DNA from: a phage
DNA length: 64,000 nt
Reading direction: 5' to 3' (one strand)
Sequence record: NC_100371.1
The notes beneath the pieces are model-generated. The model made no database searches. It worked only from the letters and a program-made list of their open reading frames with translations, and was not told where the DNA came from. Positions 5,136-59,141 of this stretch are shown in pieces. The position numbers and the translations under genes are program-made. Positions within the stretch are counted from its first letter, which is position 1. Each line of letters begins with the position of its first letter.

Positions 5136-5990
5136 TTATGCCAGTGCAGCCTCAAAATCTTTCATCATATTTTGGAAAGTTTTTGCCTTACTTAAGGTAA
5201 CACCGTGCTCTTTAGCGAAGGTTTGGAGTGCATCTTTCGAACCACTCTTGTCATCTTCGTTGTTAAGAGCTGCGGCTTGCTGCAGTATGGCATCAACATC
5301 GCCGTGAGAAGATCTTGATTCTTGTGCCTGTTCAGGATCCTGCTCAGTACCTTCCGTACCCTCCGGTGCGGTCGGACCCGGTGATTCCTCACTGCCACCA
5401 CCAGGTTCAGTAGGGCCTACAGGTGGCTCCGGCTCTGGTTCAGGTTCTGGGGCTACTGTAGAAGTCAGACCAAGATTTACAACCTGAGAACGTTTCTTAG
5501 GCCACTCAATGGTGAAAGTCTGGGTATCTTCTGCATAAGCAACATCGCATTGCTCATCGTTTATGGTCACTTTTTTGGGCATCCCTTCAGGGTCCCACAG
5601 ATGACCTTCTGCCACTGAAACTTTGAAAGCGGCATCTACCTCTTTAAACACTGACGGGGTGAGTGTGATATTGACATCACCGCTTTGCAGTGTTAAAGTG
5701 CTTTCATCAAGGTTCTCTGTGAAGAACAGAAGAATAACACCCATACGGATAGTTGAGATACCAGTATCAATTGGCAGGCCTGTGTGTTTTGCAATCTTCT
5801 CGAAGAAGTCTACAATCGTTCTGCACGGATAGTGAACACTGCCAATAACGAATTCTGTTGGTGGCAGCAGGGCTGATAAACCAACATTGATTTCTGGATT
5901 GTATTGTGCTAAAAATTGATAAAAACTTAACTGATTGTTGAAAACTCTTAATAGAGGATCATACTCGACTGGATATACGGCTCTCTTCAC
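5136..5990 (-). CDS. hypothetical structural protein with low-complexity PEPEPEPEP/PGPT linker
   Basis: 284-aa ORF downstream of capsid gene; Pro/Glu-rich linker between two domains. Confidence 0.45.
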   Translation of the reverse strand: MKRAVYPVEYDPLLRVFNNQLSFYQFLAQYNPEINVGLSALLPPTEFVIGSVHYPCRTIVDFFEKIAKHTGLPIDTGISTIRMGVILLFFTENLDESTLTLQSGDVNITLTPSVFKEVDAAFKVSVAEGHLWDPEGMPKKVTINDEQCDVAYAEDTQTFTIEWPKKRSQVVNLGLTSTVAPEPEPEPEPPVGPTEPGGGSEESPGPTAPEGTEGTEQDPEQAQESRSSHGDVDAILQQAAALNNEDDKSGSKDALQTFAKEHGVTLSKAKTFQNMMKDFEAALA

Positions 5991-14184: not shown

Positions 14185-14261
14185 TGGTCTCCACGGAGTG
14201 ATTCGAACACTCGACCTCCTGATCCCAAATCAGGCGCTCTACCAAGCTGAGCTACGCGGAG
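14185..14261 (-). tRNA. tRNA-Pro (anticodon UGG)
   Basis: Cloverleaf by eye: acceptor CTCCGCG/CGTGGAG (C1-G72 typical of Pro), anticodon loop TTTGGGA, T-loop GTTCGAATC, CCA encoded. Confidence 0.75.
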
Positions 14262-14272
14262 TATTTATTATT

Positions 14273-14347
14273 TGGTGGCCCTGGGTGGAATTGAACCACC
14301 GTCTGGCGATTATGAGTCGCTTGCTTGAACCTTCCAGCTACAGGGCC
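14273..14347 (-). tRNA. tRNA-Met (anticodon CAU; initiator/elongator/Ile-lysidine not distinguished)
   Basis: acceptor GGCCCTG/CAGGGCC, anticodon loop CTCATAA, T-loop GGTTCAATTCC, CCA encoded. Confidence 0.75.
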
Positions 14348-14348
14348 A

Positions 14349-14424
14349 TGGTGCTGATGGCAGGACTTGAACCTGCAACCTATTGATTACAAATCAATTG
14401 CACTGCCAATTGTGCTACATCAGC
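14349..14424 (-). tRNA. tRNA-Thr (anticodon UGU)
   Basis: acceptor GCTGATG/CATCAGC, anticodon arm ATTGA-TTTGTAA-TCAAT, T-arm GCAGG-TTCAAGT-CCTGC, CCA encoded. Confidence 0.75.
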
Positions 14425-14428
14425 AAAA

Positions 14429-14527
14429 GGTGCTAGGTGATGGAATCGAACCATCTATGTATTCAACGACTACCTCGTCTATTTTCAGGATTAAAAATCC
14501 TCGCCCTTGCCAAAGGGCTTACCTAGC
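14429..14527 (-). tRNA. atypical tRNA-like gene (99 nt; anticodon loop reads UUU; possibly degenerate or insert-containing)
   Basis: perfect acceptor GCTAGGT/ACCTAGC, D-arm GCCC-TTTGGCAA-GGGC, canonical T-arm GATGG-TTCGATT-CCATC, but about 30 nt between anticodon arm and T-arm. Confidence 0.4.
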
Positions 14528-14625
14528 TCAGCATGTTGACCATGTTGCTAGTCGGCGATGACGACTGTAACATTTGATAATCCGGTTCTGCTTCCGGCTT
14601 TCGCTTAATTACAAGGTCAACAATA

Positions 14626-14716
14626 TGGCAGAGGATAATGGAATCGAACCATCATCGAGTCATCCTCAACGGGACGGTTTTCAAGACCGCTTGAGCACCA
14701 TTGCTCCCTACCCTCT
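14626..14716 (-). tRNA. tRNA-Ser (anticodon UGA), type II
   Basis: acceptor AGAGGGT/ATCCTCT, anticodon arm GCGGT-CTTGAAA-ACCGT, long variable arm TTGAG-GATGA-CTCGA, T-loop GGTTCGATTCC, CCA encoded. Confidence 0.7.
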
Positions 14717-14830
14717 TTTATAAACAATACTGATAATGACACTGATTTTCGAGCAGTTAGTGACTAGTATAAACGACGATAAATATCAATGCCATTATCT
14801 GTATGATTTATGCATTTAAAAATATAAATT

Positions 14831-14918
14831 TGGTGGTGAGTGATGGAGTCGAACCACCCGAATCGCAATGATAACAGATTTACAGTCTGCCCCGCTACCC
14901 CTACGGAATTAACTCACC
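14831..14918 (-). tRNA. tRNA-Tyr (anticodon GUA), type II
   Basis: acceptor GGTGAGT/ACTCACC, anticodon arm GCAGA-CTGTAAA-TCTGT, long variable arm, T-loop TTCGACT, CCA encoded. Confidence 0.7.
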
Positions 14919-15048
14919 TAAATACTAATATTTAAATTCTTTTTAAAATAGCTAGTGTTCTAACCACTAACTATGAGGTATCGGTAAAGTGGTTACCGCC
15001 ACTTGCCGAAGATTTACTCTGCTAAAGTAAGCTACATTAAAAAGAACT

Positions 15049-15123
15049 TGGCACCCCGTACTGGACTCGAACCAGTGTCAACGGCTTAGAAGGCCGCTGC
15101 TTTATCCACTAAGCTAACAGGGC
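15049..15123 (-). tRNA. tRNA-Arg (anticodon UCU)
   Basis: acceptor GCCCTGT/ACGGGGT, anticodon arm GCGGC-CTTCTAA-GCCGT, T-arm ACTGG-TTCGAGT-CCAGT, CCA encoded. Confidence 0.7.
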
Positions 15124-56015: not shown

Positions 56016-56231
56016 ATGAAAATAGAGATATTTGGTGGGGCTGACAACACTCGTGGCCTGATTTACCTTGAATTTGATGAATCTTATCTGCCAGAGGTGT
56101 TAAATATAGATGCTGTTGCGGAAGCCCTTGATGTAGACCCTAAAGATCTCTACTCTGGTGCTGAGATTGATGGTTGGGAAGAGACTCTGAACATTGATTT
56201 CAGTGAAGTAGTGGGTGAACCTTTGGACTGA
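56016..56231 (+). CDS. hypothetical protein
   Basis: ORF 55950-56231; likely start at ATG 56016 after GGAGA (MKIEIFGG...); upstream 66 nt resemble the 5' end of gene 13869-14138. Confidence 0.4.
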   Translation: MKIEIFGGADNTRGLIYLEFDESYLPEVLNIDAVAEALDVDPKDLYSGAEIDGWEETLNIDFSEVVGEPLD

Positions 56232-56594
56232 CACACAAGTCTGCTTTGCAGGTTTAGCTGCCCAGCTAAGGTTCTGGAGGCACCTATAACATCTTTCAAC
56301 TAAATTTCCTACCAACACAGTTACTTACCCACCACACATAACTGTTTGCTTGTTTAGTGAGCAGTCATCCCTTGACATTCTTGCCTATCTTGATAAAATT
56401 AAGTTCTTCTCTTTTCTTTTACCGAGTAATTCGGGTTTTCTGTTCTCTTCGGTTTGAAGGGGTATGGAGATACACCTGAGTGAACAGGGTGAACAACCGA
56501 ACATTTGGCTATGGCATTAGCATGGCGAAGCGGACGGGTGACGAAAGAGGGGCCGGAGGACACCAGTCACTGCCATATAGTATATGGGTGATAA

Positions 56595-57135
56595 CCTGAA
56601 GAGTCTGAATAAGTGTTTAAGTACCAGTCAGAGGAAAAGGTGAATGGTAGCCGAAGGGGGAGAGGGGGTTTCTTATATCTTTAATTTGTATATTATGTAT
56701 ACACTTGTAAACCAATTCAATTAGGATCTGTTTACCACACAAAGTGGATGGAGACAAATATCACCTATTAAACTTGAATTATTTATAGAAAATACCACAA
56801 CACCTCTTAAGTATTTGATTTTACACACAAATCTTACAAATATCCTACCTCCATATTTAACATACTTGTAACATATTCCATATCCTACCTGCCTGATCAA
56901 TTTACTCCCACCACATCCCCACATTTTCCCTGTCTGTACTACCCCTGCCCCGCCGGGAGTCCCGTCATATCTGGCTTTCCAGCAAATATCGCACCCACAA
57001 ATATCATCACCTGAAGAGGGTTTCATCCCATAATACCTGCCTTACCTGAAGAGCGCTTCATACACCACGTAAATTTTTTAATTGACCCCTCCCCGCCGCC
57101 GGAGAGGTTGGCTTTTCCCACACAGGCCTGAAGAG
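56595..57135. repeat. dispersed CCTGAAGAG motif (4 copies) within non-coding region
   Basis: Copies at 56595, 57010, 57045, 57127, two of them in tandem units ACCTGAAGAG-N3-TTCAT. Confidence 0.6.
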
Positions 57136-57760
57136 TCAGCCAGAAATATCTGAACAGGTCCAGTTATACCCCGATTTTGTGCCTGTCCTACAGGAGTGCT
57201 GCCCTGTCAGGAGCCGGTAGCGACTGGAGTGCTGCCAGGCGGACGGAATGGGAATACTTCTCATTTTTATAATAATTCTCAAATATCGAGGCAGTGAGGC
57301 AAATTAATAGGCCAGGCCGTTCACACAGTGGCACAACATTTGCAATCTATCTTGTGGGAGTGAATGAGAATACCTATCATTGTGAGAATGGTTATCATTA
57401 CGGGCAATTTAACATAATACCCATTATGCGCACCACTGGCGATACATACAGGGATTGATAACATGGGTTACTGTTTACGCATATAACAATTATATTTCTT
57501 ACTATTTGTGTGGGATATAGTTAGCAACCAATAGATTAGATATTGACCTGCAGACTTCTGACCGTCCAGACGTCTAAACGCCCACACAGCAAGGATTATA
57601 CATACACTCCTGCATGTAAACAGGACCGCAAAAATGCTACCATACCAGTTTGTAAATTTTTCATGCAGCACTTGACAAAGAGGAGAAAAACTTGTCTGAC
57701 ACACTGGACACAATGTCCCACAATATGACACAATAACGGCTGTTACTATTCCATATCTCA

Positions 57761-57815
57761 CTGTTTACGCATAGACTGTTTACGCCTGAATAGTTTACGC
57801 AAAAACTGTTTACAC
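57761..57815. repeat. tandem array of four CTGTTTACGC-like 10-mers with 15-bp periodicity
   Basis: Copies at 57761, 57776, 57791 (tagtttacgc), 57806 (ctgtttacac); further isolated copies at 57471 and 58217. Confidence 0.65.
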
Positions 57816-57827
57816 AGAGATGATAAG

Positions 57828-58059
57828 CCATGCCATTCGTTTGCATGAAAACAATTAACAAGCTAACAATCTATGACATAATATAAAAGCAGGGCAACTA
57901 TTAGAAGATCTATAGTTGCCTTGCTTGTTATGTCATGATTAACTAAATACAAGGCAACTATGATCTGAATAATAGATTGCAGACAAACTATCACGGGGGT
58001 GATTGTTACTGCTTTTATATTATGTCGCGACTCCGTCGCGCCATGCCATTCGTTTGCAT
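57828..58059. repeat. pair of 19-bp direct repeats (CCATGCCATTCGTTTGCAT) flanking a palindrome-rich about 190-bp segment
   Basis: Repeats at 57828-57846 and 58041-58059; inside, inverted copies of GGCAACTAT/ATAGTTGCC and GACATAATATAAAAGCAG/CTGCTTTTATATTATGTC. Confidence 0.6.
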
Positions 58060-58682
58060 AGTTGCCTTATTGTTACAGGTAAAACAATTACATTATTAAT
58101 TATTTCTTATCTTTCTCTTAGTCATCTAATGATTCCAGTCAGTATAGTAATGTACAGTAAACATTAGACGACTAAAGATTTCTCTGTGTATAATAACTTA
58201 TCGTGACAATTTCGAACTGTTTACGAAAAATGTTGACACCTGAGCTGATTTATGTTATGCAGTTTACACGAATAATTATTTTATGCAGGTATTGACTATT
58301 CCGTTATTCTGTGGTTGGAATAAATACTTTGCAGACTATAGAATGGCGTGCGTACGTGAATTCTGAGATCTGGCGGCTATAGTTATACTCGATTTTTCGC
58401 GTAGAACACGCTTTCGATGCTGTGTAAGTGTATGACTTATAAAGATTTTTAGTTGTTGACAAGATATTGGAGATGTGCATCAGGTTAAAATTTGTGCAAT
58501 AGCGGCATTACGTGCACTTTTGGGAGAGAAAACGGGTAAAAATGGCCCTGCTACCACACAATGAAAGATTATGCAATAGTTATTTTCCATGTATATTTGT
58601 ACAGTATGTGGGATTGATGGCTAGTCAATTATTCCACTTGCCAGGTAGGGCCGTTTATGGTAGGAGAAGAGCAGACAAAAAG

Positions 58683-58708
58683 AAAGGGGCCTTTAAGCCC
58701 CTTGATAA
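58683..58708 (-). terminator. Rho-independent terminator ending the right-hand minus-strand gene block
   Basis: minus-strand GGGGC-ttaaag-GCCCC followed by TTTCTTTTTGTCT. Confidence 0.6.
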
Positions 58709-58721
58709 TTCAGTTAAGAAA

Positions 58722-59141
58722 TTATAATGATTCGTATATTTCAAAAATCCGATTTGCCAGGTCGTTACGGTAGCGGAATTTTTCATCGCGCTTGATCATT
58801 AAATCCTTATAGCCGTACTCTTTAAGCACTTCATTAACTTTATAGCGGCATACCTGCATATTATCTTGAGCGTCACCAATAAACTTGTTGCTGTGGTGCA
58901 TTGCTTTAATTTCTTCTTCCAGGACCAGGGCAACTACCCGGACCGGATCAAGCTGATAGGCGGTAACATCTATGCGGCATTGTAGACGGCTTTTAACGTC
59001 TGCCACCGGATATACTGCAACCTCTTCCCCGTCAACATTGACAATAATTAGTTTACCATCGATTTCGAATCCTTTCGCCGCCGGACCGTGACAAAAAGCG
59101 TTATCAAAGCTATATGCCGGATTATCAGATTTAATGTTCAT
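58722..59141 (-). CDS. hypothetical protein
   Basis: 139-aa ORF with RBS, last gene before terminator. Confidence 0.45.
   Translation of the reverse strand: MNIKSDNPAYSFDNAFCHGPAAKGFEIDGKLIIVNVDGEEVAVYPVADVKSRLQCRIDVTAYQLDPVRVVALVLEEEIKAMHHSNKFIGDAQDNMQVCRYKVNEVLKEYGYKDLMIKRDEKFRYRNDLANRIFEIYESL

What the first reader, a model, noticed from the sequence alone, without database searches (positions are those of the whole stretch)
56232..58720. 2.4-kb repeat-dense non-coding region between the converging plus and minus gene blocks
No credible ORF with an RBS occupies this region. It contains (a) four dispersed CCTGAAGAG motifs (56595-57135), (b) duplicated GGAGTGCTGCC and ATATCCTACCT motifs, (c) four tandem CTGTTTACGC repeats with 15-bp period (57761-57815) plus isolated copies, and (d) two 19-bp direct repeats (57828, 58041) flanking a segment full of inverted GGCAACTAT/ATAGTTGCC and 18-bp inverted repeats. 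This looks like a binding-site-rich control region: replication origin, packaging/terminus region, or a small inverted-repeat element with flanking duplication.
Basis: seen in the sequence. Interest (0 to 1): 0.7.

Follow-up and report, generated by a model that had tools for sequence, protein, structure and literature searches.

The report
Genome-end junction of rV5-like phage
This gene-free 2.5-kb stretch is where the linear DNA of an rV5-like E. coli phage begins and ends: a 459-bp terminal repeat flanked by conserved repeats and a large DNA fold-back that probably guide cutting and packaging, plus one very conserved, promoter-driven candidate non-coding RNA that nobody has described.

Summary
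56232-58721 is non-coding and every listed repeat is present at the stated place and is non-random. The window is a Vequintavirus (rV5-like myophage), and this is the "non-coding" box of the 2013 rV5 paper.

The published 459-bp direct terminal repeat (DTR) of phage Gotham maps ungapped onto 57238-57696. Six independent GenBank records start or end exactly at those two boundaries. The region is therefore the genome-end (concatemer) junction: right-end arm, DTR, left-end arm.

The DTR length is fixed at 458-460 bp in 30 relatives. The tandem arrays that begin right after its right boundary vary from 95 to 219 bp.

Two islands are three to four times less diverse than the neighbouring genes:
- **Element A (56339-56670):** the only strong conserved sigma-70 promoter in the region, followed by about 265 nt with no ORF and no Rfam match.
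- **Module B (57827-58075):** a roughly 150-nt fold-back (DNA z = -10.8) between two perfect 20-nt repeats.

A divergent lineage keeps both islands with compensating changes, so module B is not a recent insertion.

The packaging/terminus reading is supported and the insertion reading is rejected. An origin function is untested. The terminus itself is already known; the architecture and element A are new.

The parts
56232..57237 (.). Right-end non-coding arm: the unique DNA just inside the right-hand terminal repeat of virion DNA.
   Evidence: It lies between the stop of the 71-aa gene (56231) and the DTR left boundary. No ORF in it is conserved.
56372..56399 (+). Near-consensus sigma-70 promoter: TTGACA, 16-nt spacer, TGaTAAAAT (extended -10). 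It points towards the DTR.
   Evidence: It matches 11 of 12 hexamer positions plus TG. It is the only strong promoter-like site conserved in all 20 genus sequences. The divergent lineage keeps it as TTGCAA-17-TGcTATAAT.
56404..56670 (+). Element A: candidate non-coding RNA of about 265 nt. It has a pyrimidine leader, a leader hairpin, conserved single-stranded blocks and a 3' G-run (GGGGGAGAGGGGG at 56655-56667).
   Evidence: Diversity is pi 0.024 against 0.076 in the adjacent gene. Identity is 95-99% in 118 phage records. There is no Rfam match and no conserved ORF. The divergent homolog is 68% identical (E 4e-21). Independent folds of both lineages predict a closing helix between the 5' leader and the 3' G-run.
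56422..56434 (+). Leader hairpin CCGA-GUAAU-UCGG followed by a U-rich tract (attenuator-like).
   Evidence: One search lists it as terminator-like. In the divergent lineage the stem is CCAGAA/UUCUGG at the same place.
56671..56870 (.). AT-rich stretch (GC 17-30%). Its first 80 nt are variable; 56753-56830 is conserved.
56595..57135 (+). Four CCTGAAGAG copies (56595, 57010, 57045, 57127), interleaved with CAAATATC copies (56755, 56837, 56983, 56998, 57280).
   Evidence: Both motifs are enriched. Both are kept in the divergent lineage IMG1.
57190..57237 (+). GGAGTGCTGCC duplication. The distal copy belongs to a 33-bp duplication absent from about 7 of 21 genomes. The proximal copy ACWGGAGTGCTGCCA abuts the left cut site.
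   Evidence: Alignment. Phapecoctavirus Mt1B1_P17 has GAAGTGCTT directly before its own DTR.
57238..57696 (.). Direct terminal repeat (DTR), present once in this collapsed assembly. The mature left end would start GGCGGACGG; the mature right end would finish AAACTTGTC.
   Evidence: The Gotham DTR maps ungapped at 96.3% identity. The records of EdH4, bov11CS3 and bov25_3 start at 57238. The records of Gotham and YN3 end at 57696, and the Aya record starts there on the opposite strand. Published lengths are 458-459 bp. The length is 458-460 bp in 30 relatives.
57360..57402 (+). Two tandem copies of TGAGAATnnnTATCATT inside the DTR (Fur-box-like, best match 15 of 19).
   Evidence: The same motif occurs in the Phapecoctavirus DTR.
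57697..57759 (+). Array of TGACAYAAT-like units at about 10-bp spacing. It starts at the first base after the DTR.
   Evidence: IMG1 has AGGCATACTT units in the same position.
57760..57815 (+). Array of CTGTTTACRY units with 15-bp period (4 units here). Dispersed copies lie at 56728, 57471, 57616 (minus strand) and 58217.
   Evidence: The span from the DTR end to the first 20-nt repeat varies from 95 to 219 bp, with 1-8 units, among relatives.
57827..57846 (+). 20-nt direct repeat, copy 1: GCCATGCCATTCGTTTGCAT.
   Evidence: Diversity is pi 0.012. Both copies are changed in concert in IMG1.
57875..58026 (.). Module B core: an imperfect palindrome (fold-back) of about 150 nt. It is built from an 18-nt perfect outer inverted repeat, four GGCAACTAT motifs (two in each orientation) and the inner hairpin CTATCACGGGGGTGATTG.
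   Evidence: Single-strand DNA fold -44.8 kcal/mol, z = -10.8. The IMG1 equivalent, with a different sequence, gives z = -8.4. Compensatory arm changes are seen.
58040..58059 (+). 20-nt direct repeat, copy 2.
58076..58683 (.). AT-rich remainder of the left-end arm. It is moderately conserved and has only weak promoter-like sites.
58684..58703 (-). Intrinsic terminator of the converging minus-strand gene block.
   Evidence: Other annotators also predict a terminator here in Alma and Murica.

Best explanation
The region is the genome-terminus (concatemer-junction) region of a Vequintavirus whose virion DNA has fixed ends and a short direct terminal repeat, as in T7.

Shown or well supported:
- The DTR is 57238-57696.
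- 56232-57237 is the arm just inside the right end, and 57697-58721 is the arm just inside the left end.
- In replicating concatemers, and in this collapsed assembly, the DTR is present once.

Inferred mechanism:
- Terminase must cut at GGAGTGCTGCCA^GGCGGACG (left boundary) and at AAACTTGTC^TGACAC (right boundary), and the DTR must be duplicated for each packaged genome.
- The repeated motifs in the arms are cis-acting sites for the terminase small subunit or other end-processing factors. These motifs are CCTGAAGAG, CAAATATC and GGAGTGCTGCC on the left of the DTR, and the TGACAYAAT and CTGTTTACRY arrays directly on its right.
- The 150-nt fold-back between the two 20-nt repeats is a structural element. 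It could act like the hairpin intermediate proposed for T7 terminal-repeat duplication.

A separate unit sits in the right arm. Element A is most likely a gene for a non-coding RNA of about 265 nt made by host RNA polymerase. Its role is unknown; it could act in trans or prime replication through its G-run.
For: Identity of the locus:
- 123 Vequintavirus records match at 90-98% identity.
- The rV5 paper marks this stretch as "non-coding".

The DTR:
- The Gotham record carries identical 459-bp repeats at both ends. [quoted passage not shown]
- EdH4 and HdK5 have 458-bp terminal redundancies.
- The Gotham DTR maps ungapped to 57238-57696.
- Six independent records begin or end at exactly these two positions.
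- The DTR-equivalent is 458-460 bp in 30 relatives, while the DNA directly outside the right boundary varies from 95 to 219 bp.
- A related subfamily member, KPP-1, has a 514-bp DTR of T7 type.
- Phapecoctavirus Mt1B1_P17 has an exact 328-bp DTR in the equivalent gap, next to the homolog of the 139-aa gene, with similar boundary motifs.

The motifs:
- They are strongly non-random.
- They are kept in a divergent lineage.

Module B:
- Fold z-scores are -10.8 and -8.4 in two lineages with different sequences.
- Both direct-repeat copies and both inverted-repeat arms changed in concert.

Element A.
Against: - No read data exist for this particular phage, so its ends are inferred by homology (96% identity).
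- One recent paper reports a PhageTerm call of headful packaging with partial permutation for another Vequintavirus, although CheckV flagged a DTR in that genome. The 2013 rV5 paper also assumed circular permutation.
- No protein has been shown to bind any of the motifs.
- The arms share no detectable sequence with the Phapecoctavirus arms, so the site assignments cannot be cross-checked there.
- The RNA fold of element A is only weakly better than shuffles (z = -1.74). The paired-versus-unpaired substitution test is biased, because the opposite strand gives a similar result.
- The divergent homolog lacks a U-tract after the G-run, so the 3' end of the RNA is undefined.
Confidence: 0.78

Rival explanations
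1. The region, or part of it, is the origin of DNA replication. Either the CTGTTTAC/GGCAACTAT repeats act as iterons bound by a phage initiator, or the origin is transcription-primed: the strong promoter makes an RNA whose G-run forms a stable RNA-DNA hybrid next to the AT-rich stretch, as in ColE1 RNA II, T4 oriF/oriG or mitochondrial CSBII. This is compatible with the terminus reading, not exclusive of it.
For: - Motifs are repeated in both orientations.
- The layout is promoter 56372-56399, then about 265 nt, then G5AGAG5, then a stretch of 17-30% GC. The two G-runs are kept in both lineages.
- The divergent relative IMG1 carries three perfect DnaA boxes inside its DTR-equivalent.
- The rV5 authors saw a skew change here.
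- From memory: T7 secondary origins lie near its genome ends.
Against: - The window has only 2 loose DnaA-box matches and GATC is depleted.
- The skew change coincides with the switch in transcription direction, so it is uninformative.
- No initiator gene is adjacent; the flanking proteins have no Pfam match.
- No functional data exist.
Confidence: 0.3
2. The region is essentially an RNA locus. Its conservation reflects one or more non-coding RNAs (element A, and perhaps module B as an RNA hairpin or terminator) rather than DNA-level packaging signals.
For: - Element A has a conserved consensus promoter, no ORF and extreme conservation.
- A homolog in a second lineage keeps the promoter and the terminal helix.
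- One IMG1-type contig (L042) lacks exactly one predicted hairpin (26 nt), as expected for a modular RNA.
- The inner hairpin of module B is followed on the minus strand by TTTTATATTAT, and other annotators predict a terminator there.
Against: - Only one strong conserved promoter exists in the 2.5 kb, so most of the region has no evident transcription signal.
- The DTR mapping explains the centre of the region without any RNA.
- There is no Rfam family.
- Fold z-scores for element A are modest.
Confidence: 0.25
3. 57828-58059 is a small inverted-repeat mobile element (MITE-like) that inserted here and duplicated its 19-20-bp target.
For: Perfect 20-nt direct repeats flank a segment rich in inverted repeats.
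Against: - It is present in all 30 genus sequences and is less diverse than any neighbouring DNA.
- No genome has an empty site.
- There is no second copy in the window.
- In the divergent lineage both direct-repeat copies differ from the window in the same way. That indicates selection on a pair of sites, not a neutral target duplication.
Confidence: 0.03
4. The region contains overlooked small protein-coding genes. Several GenBank records annotate hypothetical proteins here.
For: Some annotators call ORFs in this stretch: FFH2 ORF150, Murica150, Mangalyan 163-174. Gene callers called ORFs of up to 208 aa on two metagenome contigs.
Against: - The called ORFs differ from record to record.
- The longest window ORFs are interrupted in most relatives, while the flanking genes are intact wherever they are present.
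- The 18-codon ORF inside element A loses its ATG in some genus members and in the divergent lineage.
Confidence: 0.03

Closest known systems
Terminal repeats of Vequintavirus relatives (Gotham 459 bp, Dias et al. 2020; EdH4 and HdK5 458 bp, Korf et al. 2019) and the "non-coding" box of rV5 (Kropinski et al. 2013)
   Same: It is the same locus at 90-98% identity. The DTR boundaries transfer base for base.
   Different: Those reports give only a repeat length or an empty box. None of the papers found by these searches links the two or describes the arms, the boundary-abutting arrays, the fold-back or element A.
Phage T7/T3 concatemer junction (160/230-bp terminal repeat flanked by arrays of short repeats SRL and SRR; hairpin intermediate in repeat duplication). 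Recalled from Dunn & Studier 1983 and Chung, Nardone & Hinkle 1990; not re-read here.
   Same: A short exact DTR with fixed ends, arrays of short imperfect tandem repeats directly outside the repeat, and a palindrome near the junction. A subfamily relative (KPP-1) is classed as T7-type by PhageTerm.
   Different: This is a 137-kb myovirus with no phage RNA polymerase. The DTR is three times longer, the repeat units are unrelated, and the fold-back lies on the left-end side. No sequence similarity exists. Homology of the terminase was not tested.
Lambda cos (cosQ-cosN-cosB, with repeated R sites for the small terminase subunit)
   Same: Repeated short motifs lie next to the cut site in a gene-free stretch.
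   Different: Lambda makes 12-nt cohesive ends, not a duplicated 459-bp repeat. The motifs are unrelated.
Transcription-primed origins: ColE1 RNA II, T4 oriF/oriG, mitochondrial LSP-CSBII (from general knowledge)
   Same: Element A has a strong promoter, a structured transcript, a tract of two G-runs (G5AGAG5; G5AG6 in rV5; G6TAG5 in IMG1) and then AT-rich DNA.
   Different: No evidence exists for an R-loop, for RNase H processing or for initiation here. No sequence similarity exists. A 5'-3' closing helix would compete with hybrid formation.
Phage T5 terminal non-coding region with repeats, palindromes and DnaA boxes (recalled from Davison 2015; not re-read here)
   Same: A repeat- and palindrome-dense gene-free stretch close to a genome end. 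DnaA boxes are present in the IMG1 relative.
   Different: The T5 repeat is about 10 kb and that region is tied to two-step DNA injection. Nothing suggests that mechanism here.

Membership tests
Short direct-terminal-repeat (T7-type) genome terminus | The same sequence is present at both ends of virion DNA. | tested here: met
   Met for close relatives. In Gotham, positions 1-459 equal 136567-137025. Mt1B1_P17 has an exact 328-bp repeat. For the window phage this is inferred by 96% homology, because no reads are available.
Short direct-terminal-repeat (T7-type) genome terminus | Fixed, sequence-specific ends (not permuted). | tested here: met
   Six independent records start or end exactly at 57238 or 57696. 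The authors report the same start sequence in all virions. One PhageTerm report for another isolate disagrees.
Short direct-terminal-repeat (T7-type) genome terminus | About two-fold read coverage over the repeat, and read-start peaks at both boundaries, in this phage. | not testable with these tools
   No sequencing reads are available.
Short direct-terminal-repeat (T7-type) genome terminus | The large terminase subunit groups with short-DTR terminases. | not tested
   The terminase gene was not looked for. Only the PhageTerm T7-type call for subfamily member KPP-1 is available.
Chromosome-type (DnaA/oriC-like) replication origin | A cluster of DnaA boxes with an AT-rich unwinding element and GATC clustering. 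| tested here: not met
   There are 2 loose DnaA-box matches and no perfect one. GATC occurs at 5 sites against about 14 expected. An AT-rich stretch exists. The relative IMG1 does have 3 perfect boxes.
Iteron-type origin | Tandem iterons plus an adjacent initiator gene. | tested here: inconclusive
   Tandem and dispersed CTGTTTAC repeats are present. No initiator gene is recognisable nearby.
MITE / insertion with target-site duplication | Presence/absence polymorphism and multiple copies. | tested here: not met
   It is present in 30 of 30 genus sequences and in IMG1. The window holds a single copy.
Any Rfam RNA family | A covariance-model match. | tested here: not met
   There is no hit in the region at gathering threshold, and nothing meaningful at E < 5.
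Structured non-coding RNA gene (element A) | A promoter conserved across lineages, no ORF, and base pairs supported by compensatory change. | tested here: inconclusive
   Promoter conservation and absence of an ORF are met. Some helices are kept with different sequences (leader hairpin; UAUGGCA/UGCCAUA becomes UAUCGCA/UGCGAUG). Only two lineages exist, many pairs are G-U, and the alignment is uncertain.

The most novel reading that the evidence does not exclude
Two undescribed functional elements sit beside the genome ends of rV5-like phages.

1. Element A is a new family of non-coding RNA of about 265-280 nt, transcribed by host RNA polymerase from a consensus promoter about 850 bp from the right end. 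Its conserved pair of G-runs and 5'-3' closing helix may serve either to prime replication through an R-loop or to act in trans on the host.

2. Module B is a conserved 150-nt DNA fold-back bracketed by two co-evolving 20-nt sites. It may be the hairpin intermediate or recognition structure that allows the 459-bp terminal repeat to be duplicated during packaging.
Probability: 0.3. Interest if true: 0.6.

Novelty: new member of a known kind. Interest (0 to 1): 0.4.

Why it matters
rV5-like phages are widely isolated and are used in E. coli O157 typing, biocontrol and therapy cocktails. Yet their largest gene-free stretch has stood as an unexplained "non-coding" box since 2013, and many database records are still opened at arbitrary positions.

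Placing the fixed ends at 57238 and 57696 gives a correct way to orient and compare these genomes. It also defines the cis-acting DNA that any engineered or rebooted genome must keep.

The boundary-abutting arrays and the co-evolving fold-back offer a myovirus counterpart to the T7 junction for studying how short terminal repeats are recognised and duplicated. Element A, if expressed, would be a new, very highly conserved phage RNA with a simple experimental handle: one promoter and one transcript.

Tried and rejected
- **Rfam.** Searches at gathering and at permissive thresholds found nothing in the region. A hammerhead reading of CUGAAGAG was considered and dropped, because no ribozyme model matched and the flanks lack the GAAA core.
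- **Host origin of element A.** There is no match in 5,426 complete E. coli genomes.
- **More distant carriers through the flanking 71-aa gene.** All homologs are at least 85% identical, so the gene is limited to the genus.
- **Phapecoctavirus arms.** The terminus location is the same, but there is no alignable sequence and none of the window's motifs. They are useful for architecture only.
- **CsrA-sponge idea for element A.** GGA motifs are not enriched: 6 observed against 7.2 in shuffles.
- **Paired-versus-unpaired substitution test for element A.** It gave p = 0.016, but the opposite strand's consensus fold gives a similar bias. I do not count it as evidence.
- **Early-promoter cluster like T7 A1-A3.** Only one strong conserved promoter exists, and it points outward.
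- **Fur boxes in the DTR.** Four phased matches were found (best 15 of 19), but 36 matches of at least 13 of 19 occur across the window, so this is only a lead.
- **A correction.** An early conclusion that IMG1 lacks element A was wrong. My extraction stopped short, and the homolog lies beyond an inserted HNH endonuclease gene.
- **Structure-aware alignment.** MAFFT Q-INS-i was unavailable.
- **Literature.** Searches found no transcriptome of a Vequintavirus.
Full report
**What the window is.** The 3-kb stretch around the finding matches 123 phage records at 90-98% identity. Nearly all are Vequintavirus, the rV5-like E. coli myophages. Annotators leave about 2.5 kb empty between a 71-aa gene on the plus strand (56016-56231) and a 139-aa gene on the minus strand (58722-59141). 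The 2013 rV5 paper draws this stretch as a grey box "labeled non-coding [that] contained no ORFs". It notes a GC-skew change here that coincides with the change in transcription direction, and it treats these genomes as circularly permuted.

**Check of the observation.**
- CCTGAAGAG occurs 4 times in the region and 7 times in the window, against 0.58 expected.
- CTGTTTAC occurs 8 times in the window, 7 of them here, against 2.3 expected.
- An unbiased k-mer count also picks out CAAATATC, with 5 copies here and 2 elsewhere.
- The direct repeat is 20 nt and perfect.
- The longest ORFs in the region are interrupted in most of 20 relatives, whereas the flanking genes are intact wherever they are present.

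The region is truly non-coding and truly repeat-dense.

**The key result: the genome ends are here.** In the distant-similarity search, several records begin or end inside the region at recurring positions. Gotham's record carries an annotated 459-bp repeat at both ends. [quoted passage not shown] Korf et al. report 458-bp terminal redundancies for EdH4 and HdK5.

The two Gotham copies are identical and map ungapped onto window 57238-57696 at 96.3% identity. The records of EdH4, bov11CS3 and bov25_3 start at the position equivalent to 57238. The records of Gotham and YN3 end at 57696, and the Aya record starts there on the other strand.

The window therefore shows the collapsed (concatemer-like) form: right-end arm 56232-57237, DTR 57238-57696, left-end arm 57697-58721. 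Both converging gene blocks are transcribed towards the genome ends.

**Comparative anatomy.** I aligned the window with 17 GenBank relatives, 10 metagenome contigs and 2 IMG/VR contigs.
- The DTR-equivalent is 458-460 bp in all 30 genus sequences.
- Conservation stops abruptly at the right boundary (AAACTTGTC | TGACAC). What follows is the most variable DNA of the locus (pi 0.295). It is an array of TGACAYAAT-like units at about 10-bp spacing, then CTGTTTACRY units at 15-bp spacing. Together they span 95 to 219 bp in different phages.
- At the left boundary the conserved sequence is ACWGGAGTGCTGCCA | GGCGGACG.
- Phapecoctavirus Mt1B1_P17, from another subfamily, has an exact 328-bp DTR in the equivalent gap beside the homolog of the 139-aa gene. 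Its boundary contexts are similar: GAAGTGCTT | AACGCGAA and AAGAGAAGATGCT | CAAC. Its arms share no alignable sequence with the window.
- The subfamily member KPP-1 has a 514-bp DTR classed as T7-type.

**Two islands of extreme conservation.** Nucleotide diversity is 0.076 in the 71-aa gene and in the DTR. It is 0.024 in element A (56339-56670), 0.020 in module B (57873-58075) and 0.012 in the first 20-nt repeat.

**Module B.** The segment between the two 20-nt repeats folds back on itself as single-stranded DNA at -44.8 kcal/mol, with z = -10.8 against shuffles. A divergent lineage keeps the architecture with other sequences. This lineage is IMG/VR contig 3300045988_159287, here called IMG1; its 139-aa protein is 93% identical.
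- Both direct-repeat copies read GCCATGTTATCGTTGCAT.
- The outer inverted repeat is GACATAATAACGCTGAG on both arms.
- The inner repeated motif is ACTATAACGCTGA instead of GGCAACTAT.
- The small hairpin changes from CTATCAC-GGGG-GTGATTG to ATAACAC-GGGG-GTGTTAT.
- The fold is again exceptional (z = -8.4).

This rules out a recent insertion with a target duplication. It argues for a selected structure, or for a set of sites that co-evolve with a binding protein.

**Element A.** The only strong promoter-like site conserved across the genus is TTGACA-16-TGaTAAAAT at 56372-56399, pointing towards the DTR. The following 265 nt or so are 95-99% identical in 118 records. They have no Rfam match, no match in E. 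coli genomes and no conserved ORF.

IMG1 and two sister contigs carry a homolog at 68% identity (E 4e-21). In IMG1 an HNH endonuclease gene is inserted between element A and the DTR-proximal motif cluster. These homologs keep:
- the promoter, as TTGCAA-17-TGcTATAAT;
- the pyrimidine leader;
- a leader hairpin with a different stem (CCGA/UCGG against CCAGAA/UUCUGG);
- long invariant blocks (CTGAGTGAACAGsGTGAACAwCCGAA and GTTTAAGTACCAG);
- a 3' pair of G-runs.

Independent folds of both versions pair the 5' leader with the 3' G-run. One helix shows a G-C to C-G swap. One contig lacks exactly one predicted hairpin.

Against this, the fold z-score is modest (-1.74), many pairs are G-U, and my substitution test proved uninformative. 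I rate a transcribed non-coding RNA as more likely than not. Its role is open.

**Mechanism proposed.** The location of the fixed ends and of the repeat is shown. The rest is inferred.
- As in T7-type phages, terminase would recognise sites in the arms, cut at the two boundaries, and the repeat would be duplicated for each packaged genome.
- The motif cluster left of the DTR, and the arrays that start at the first base right of it, are the natural candidates for recognition sites. Their copy-number drift is what redundant sites would show.
- The fold-back may play the part of the hairpin intermediate proposed for T7. This comparison rests on my memory of Dunn & Studier 1983 and Chung et al. 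1990, which I could not re-read.

**Origin of replication.** This remains possible but is unsupported. The window has no DnaA-box cluster and GATC is depleted, although IMG1 has three perfect DnaA boxes inside its DTR-equivalent. Element A's layout (promoter, G-run, AT-rich stretch) would suit a transcription-primed origin.

**Contrary evidence.** One 2026 paper reports a PhageTerm inference of headful packaging for another Vequintavirus, while CheckV flagged a DTR in that genome. The ends of the window phage itself are inferred by homology.

**Verdict.** The packaging/terminus alternative is right, the insertion alternative is wrong, and the origin alternative is untested. The terminus itself is already documented for relatives. 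The architecture of the arms, the co-evolving fold-back and the candidate RNA were not described in any paper or record I examined.

Noticed in passing
window 14429-14527 (minus strand): Within the tRNA cluster at 14185-15123, ARAGORN calls one 99-nt tRNA of unknown identity with a 4-base anticodon (atcc). Rfam scores it as tRNA at only 37.5 bits.
   Followed up: no
window 57360-57402; L007 57-75 and 237-255: Two tandem copies of TGAGAATnnnTATCATT lie inside the DTR. They resemble the Fur box (best 15 of 19, four hits phased by 6 bp). The same motif occurs in the otherwise unalignable DTR of Phapecoctavirus Mt1B1_P17. Matches of at least 13 of 19 are common in the window (36), so significance is unclear.
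   Followed up: partly
L010 about 5839-5886 (IMG/VR contig 3300045988_159287): The divergent relative has three perfect DnaA boxes (TTATCCACA) in tandem, plus a fourth near-match. They lie in an insertion inside its DTR-equivalent and are absent from the window phage.
   Followed up: partly
L010 6716-7486: A 256-aa HNH endonuclease ORF (Pfam HNH_3, E 1.6e-18) is inserted between element A and the DTR-proximal motif cluster in the divergent lineage. This shows the right arm tolerates a mobile gene at that point.
   Followed up: partly
phage collection, records MG0656xx: Nineteen GenBank records named "Campylobacter phage" (several marked UNVERIFIED, none annotated) are 86-91% identical to this E. 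coli Vequintavirus locus. The host attribution looks doubtful.
   Followed up: no
window 58722-59141 (minus strand); L007 1245-1664; L009 5001-5420: The 139-aa gene next to the left-end arm is about 89% identical in protein to a gene of Phapecoctavirus (a different subfamily) that also sits beside the genome end. It is missing in Gotham, Alma and one metagenome contig. It has no Pfam match. Record annotations such as "DNA translocase" or "Rel homology domain" are unsupported.
   Followed up: partly
window 56232-58721: GATC is depleted in the region: 5 sites against about 14 expected from the window's own density of one per 173 bp.
   Followed up: no
L042 (IMG/VR contig 3300045988_140627), element A homolog: This contig lacks a 26-nt segment that forms the CCUGAAGAG-containing hairpin in its sister contigs. 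The result is a clean loss of one predicted helix.
   Followed up: no
window 57887-57926: The inner hairpin of module B (15-bp stem) is followed on the minus strand by TTTTATATTAT. Two other annotation teams predict a terminator here (Alma, Murica). No convincing minus-strand promoter lies upstream of it within the region.
   Followed up: partly
window 32161, 33023, 39659: The three CCTGAAGAG copies outside the region are all on the plus strand, inside the plus-strand gene block. They may simply be Pro-Glu-Glu codons.
   Followed up: no
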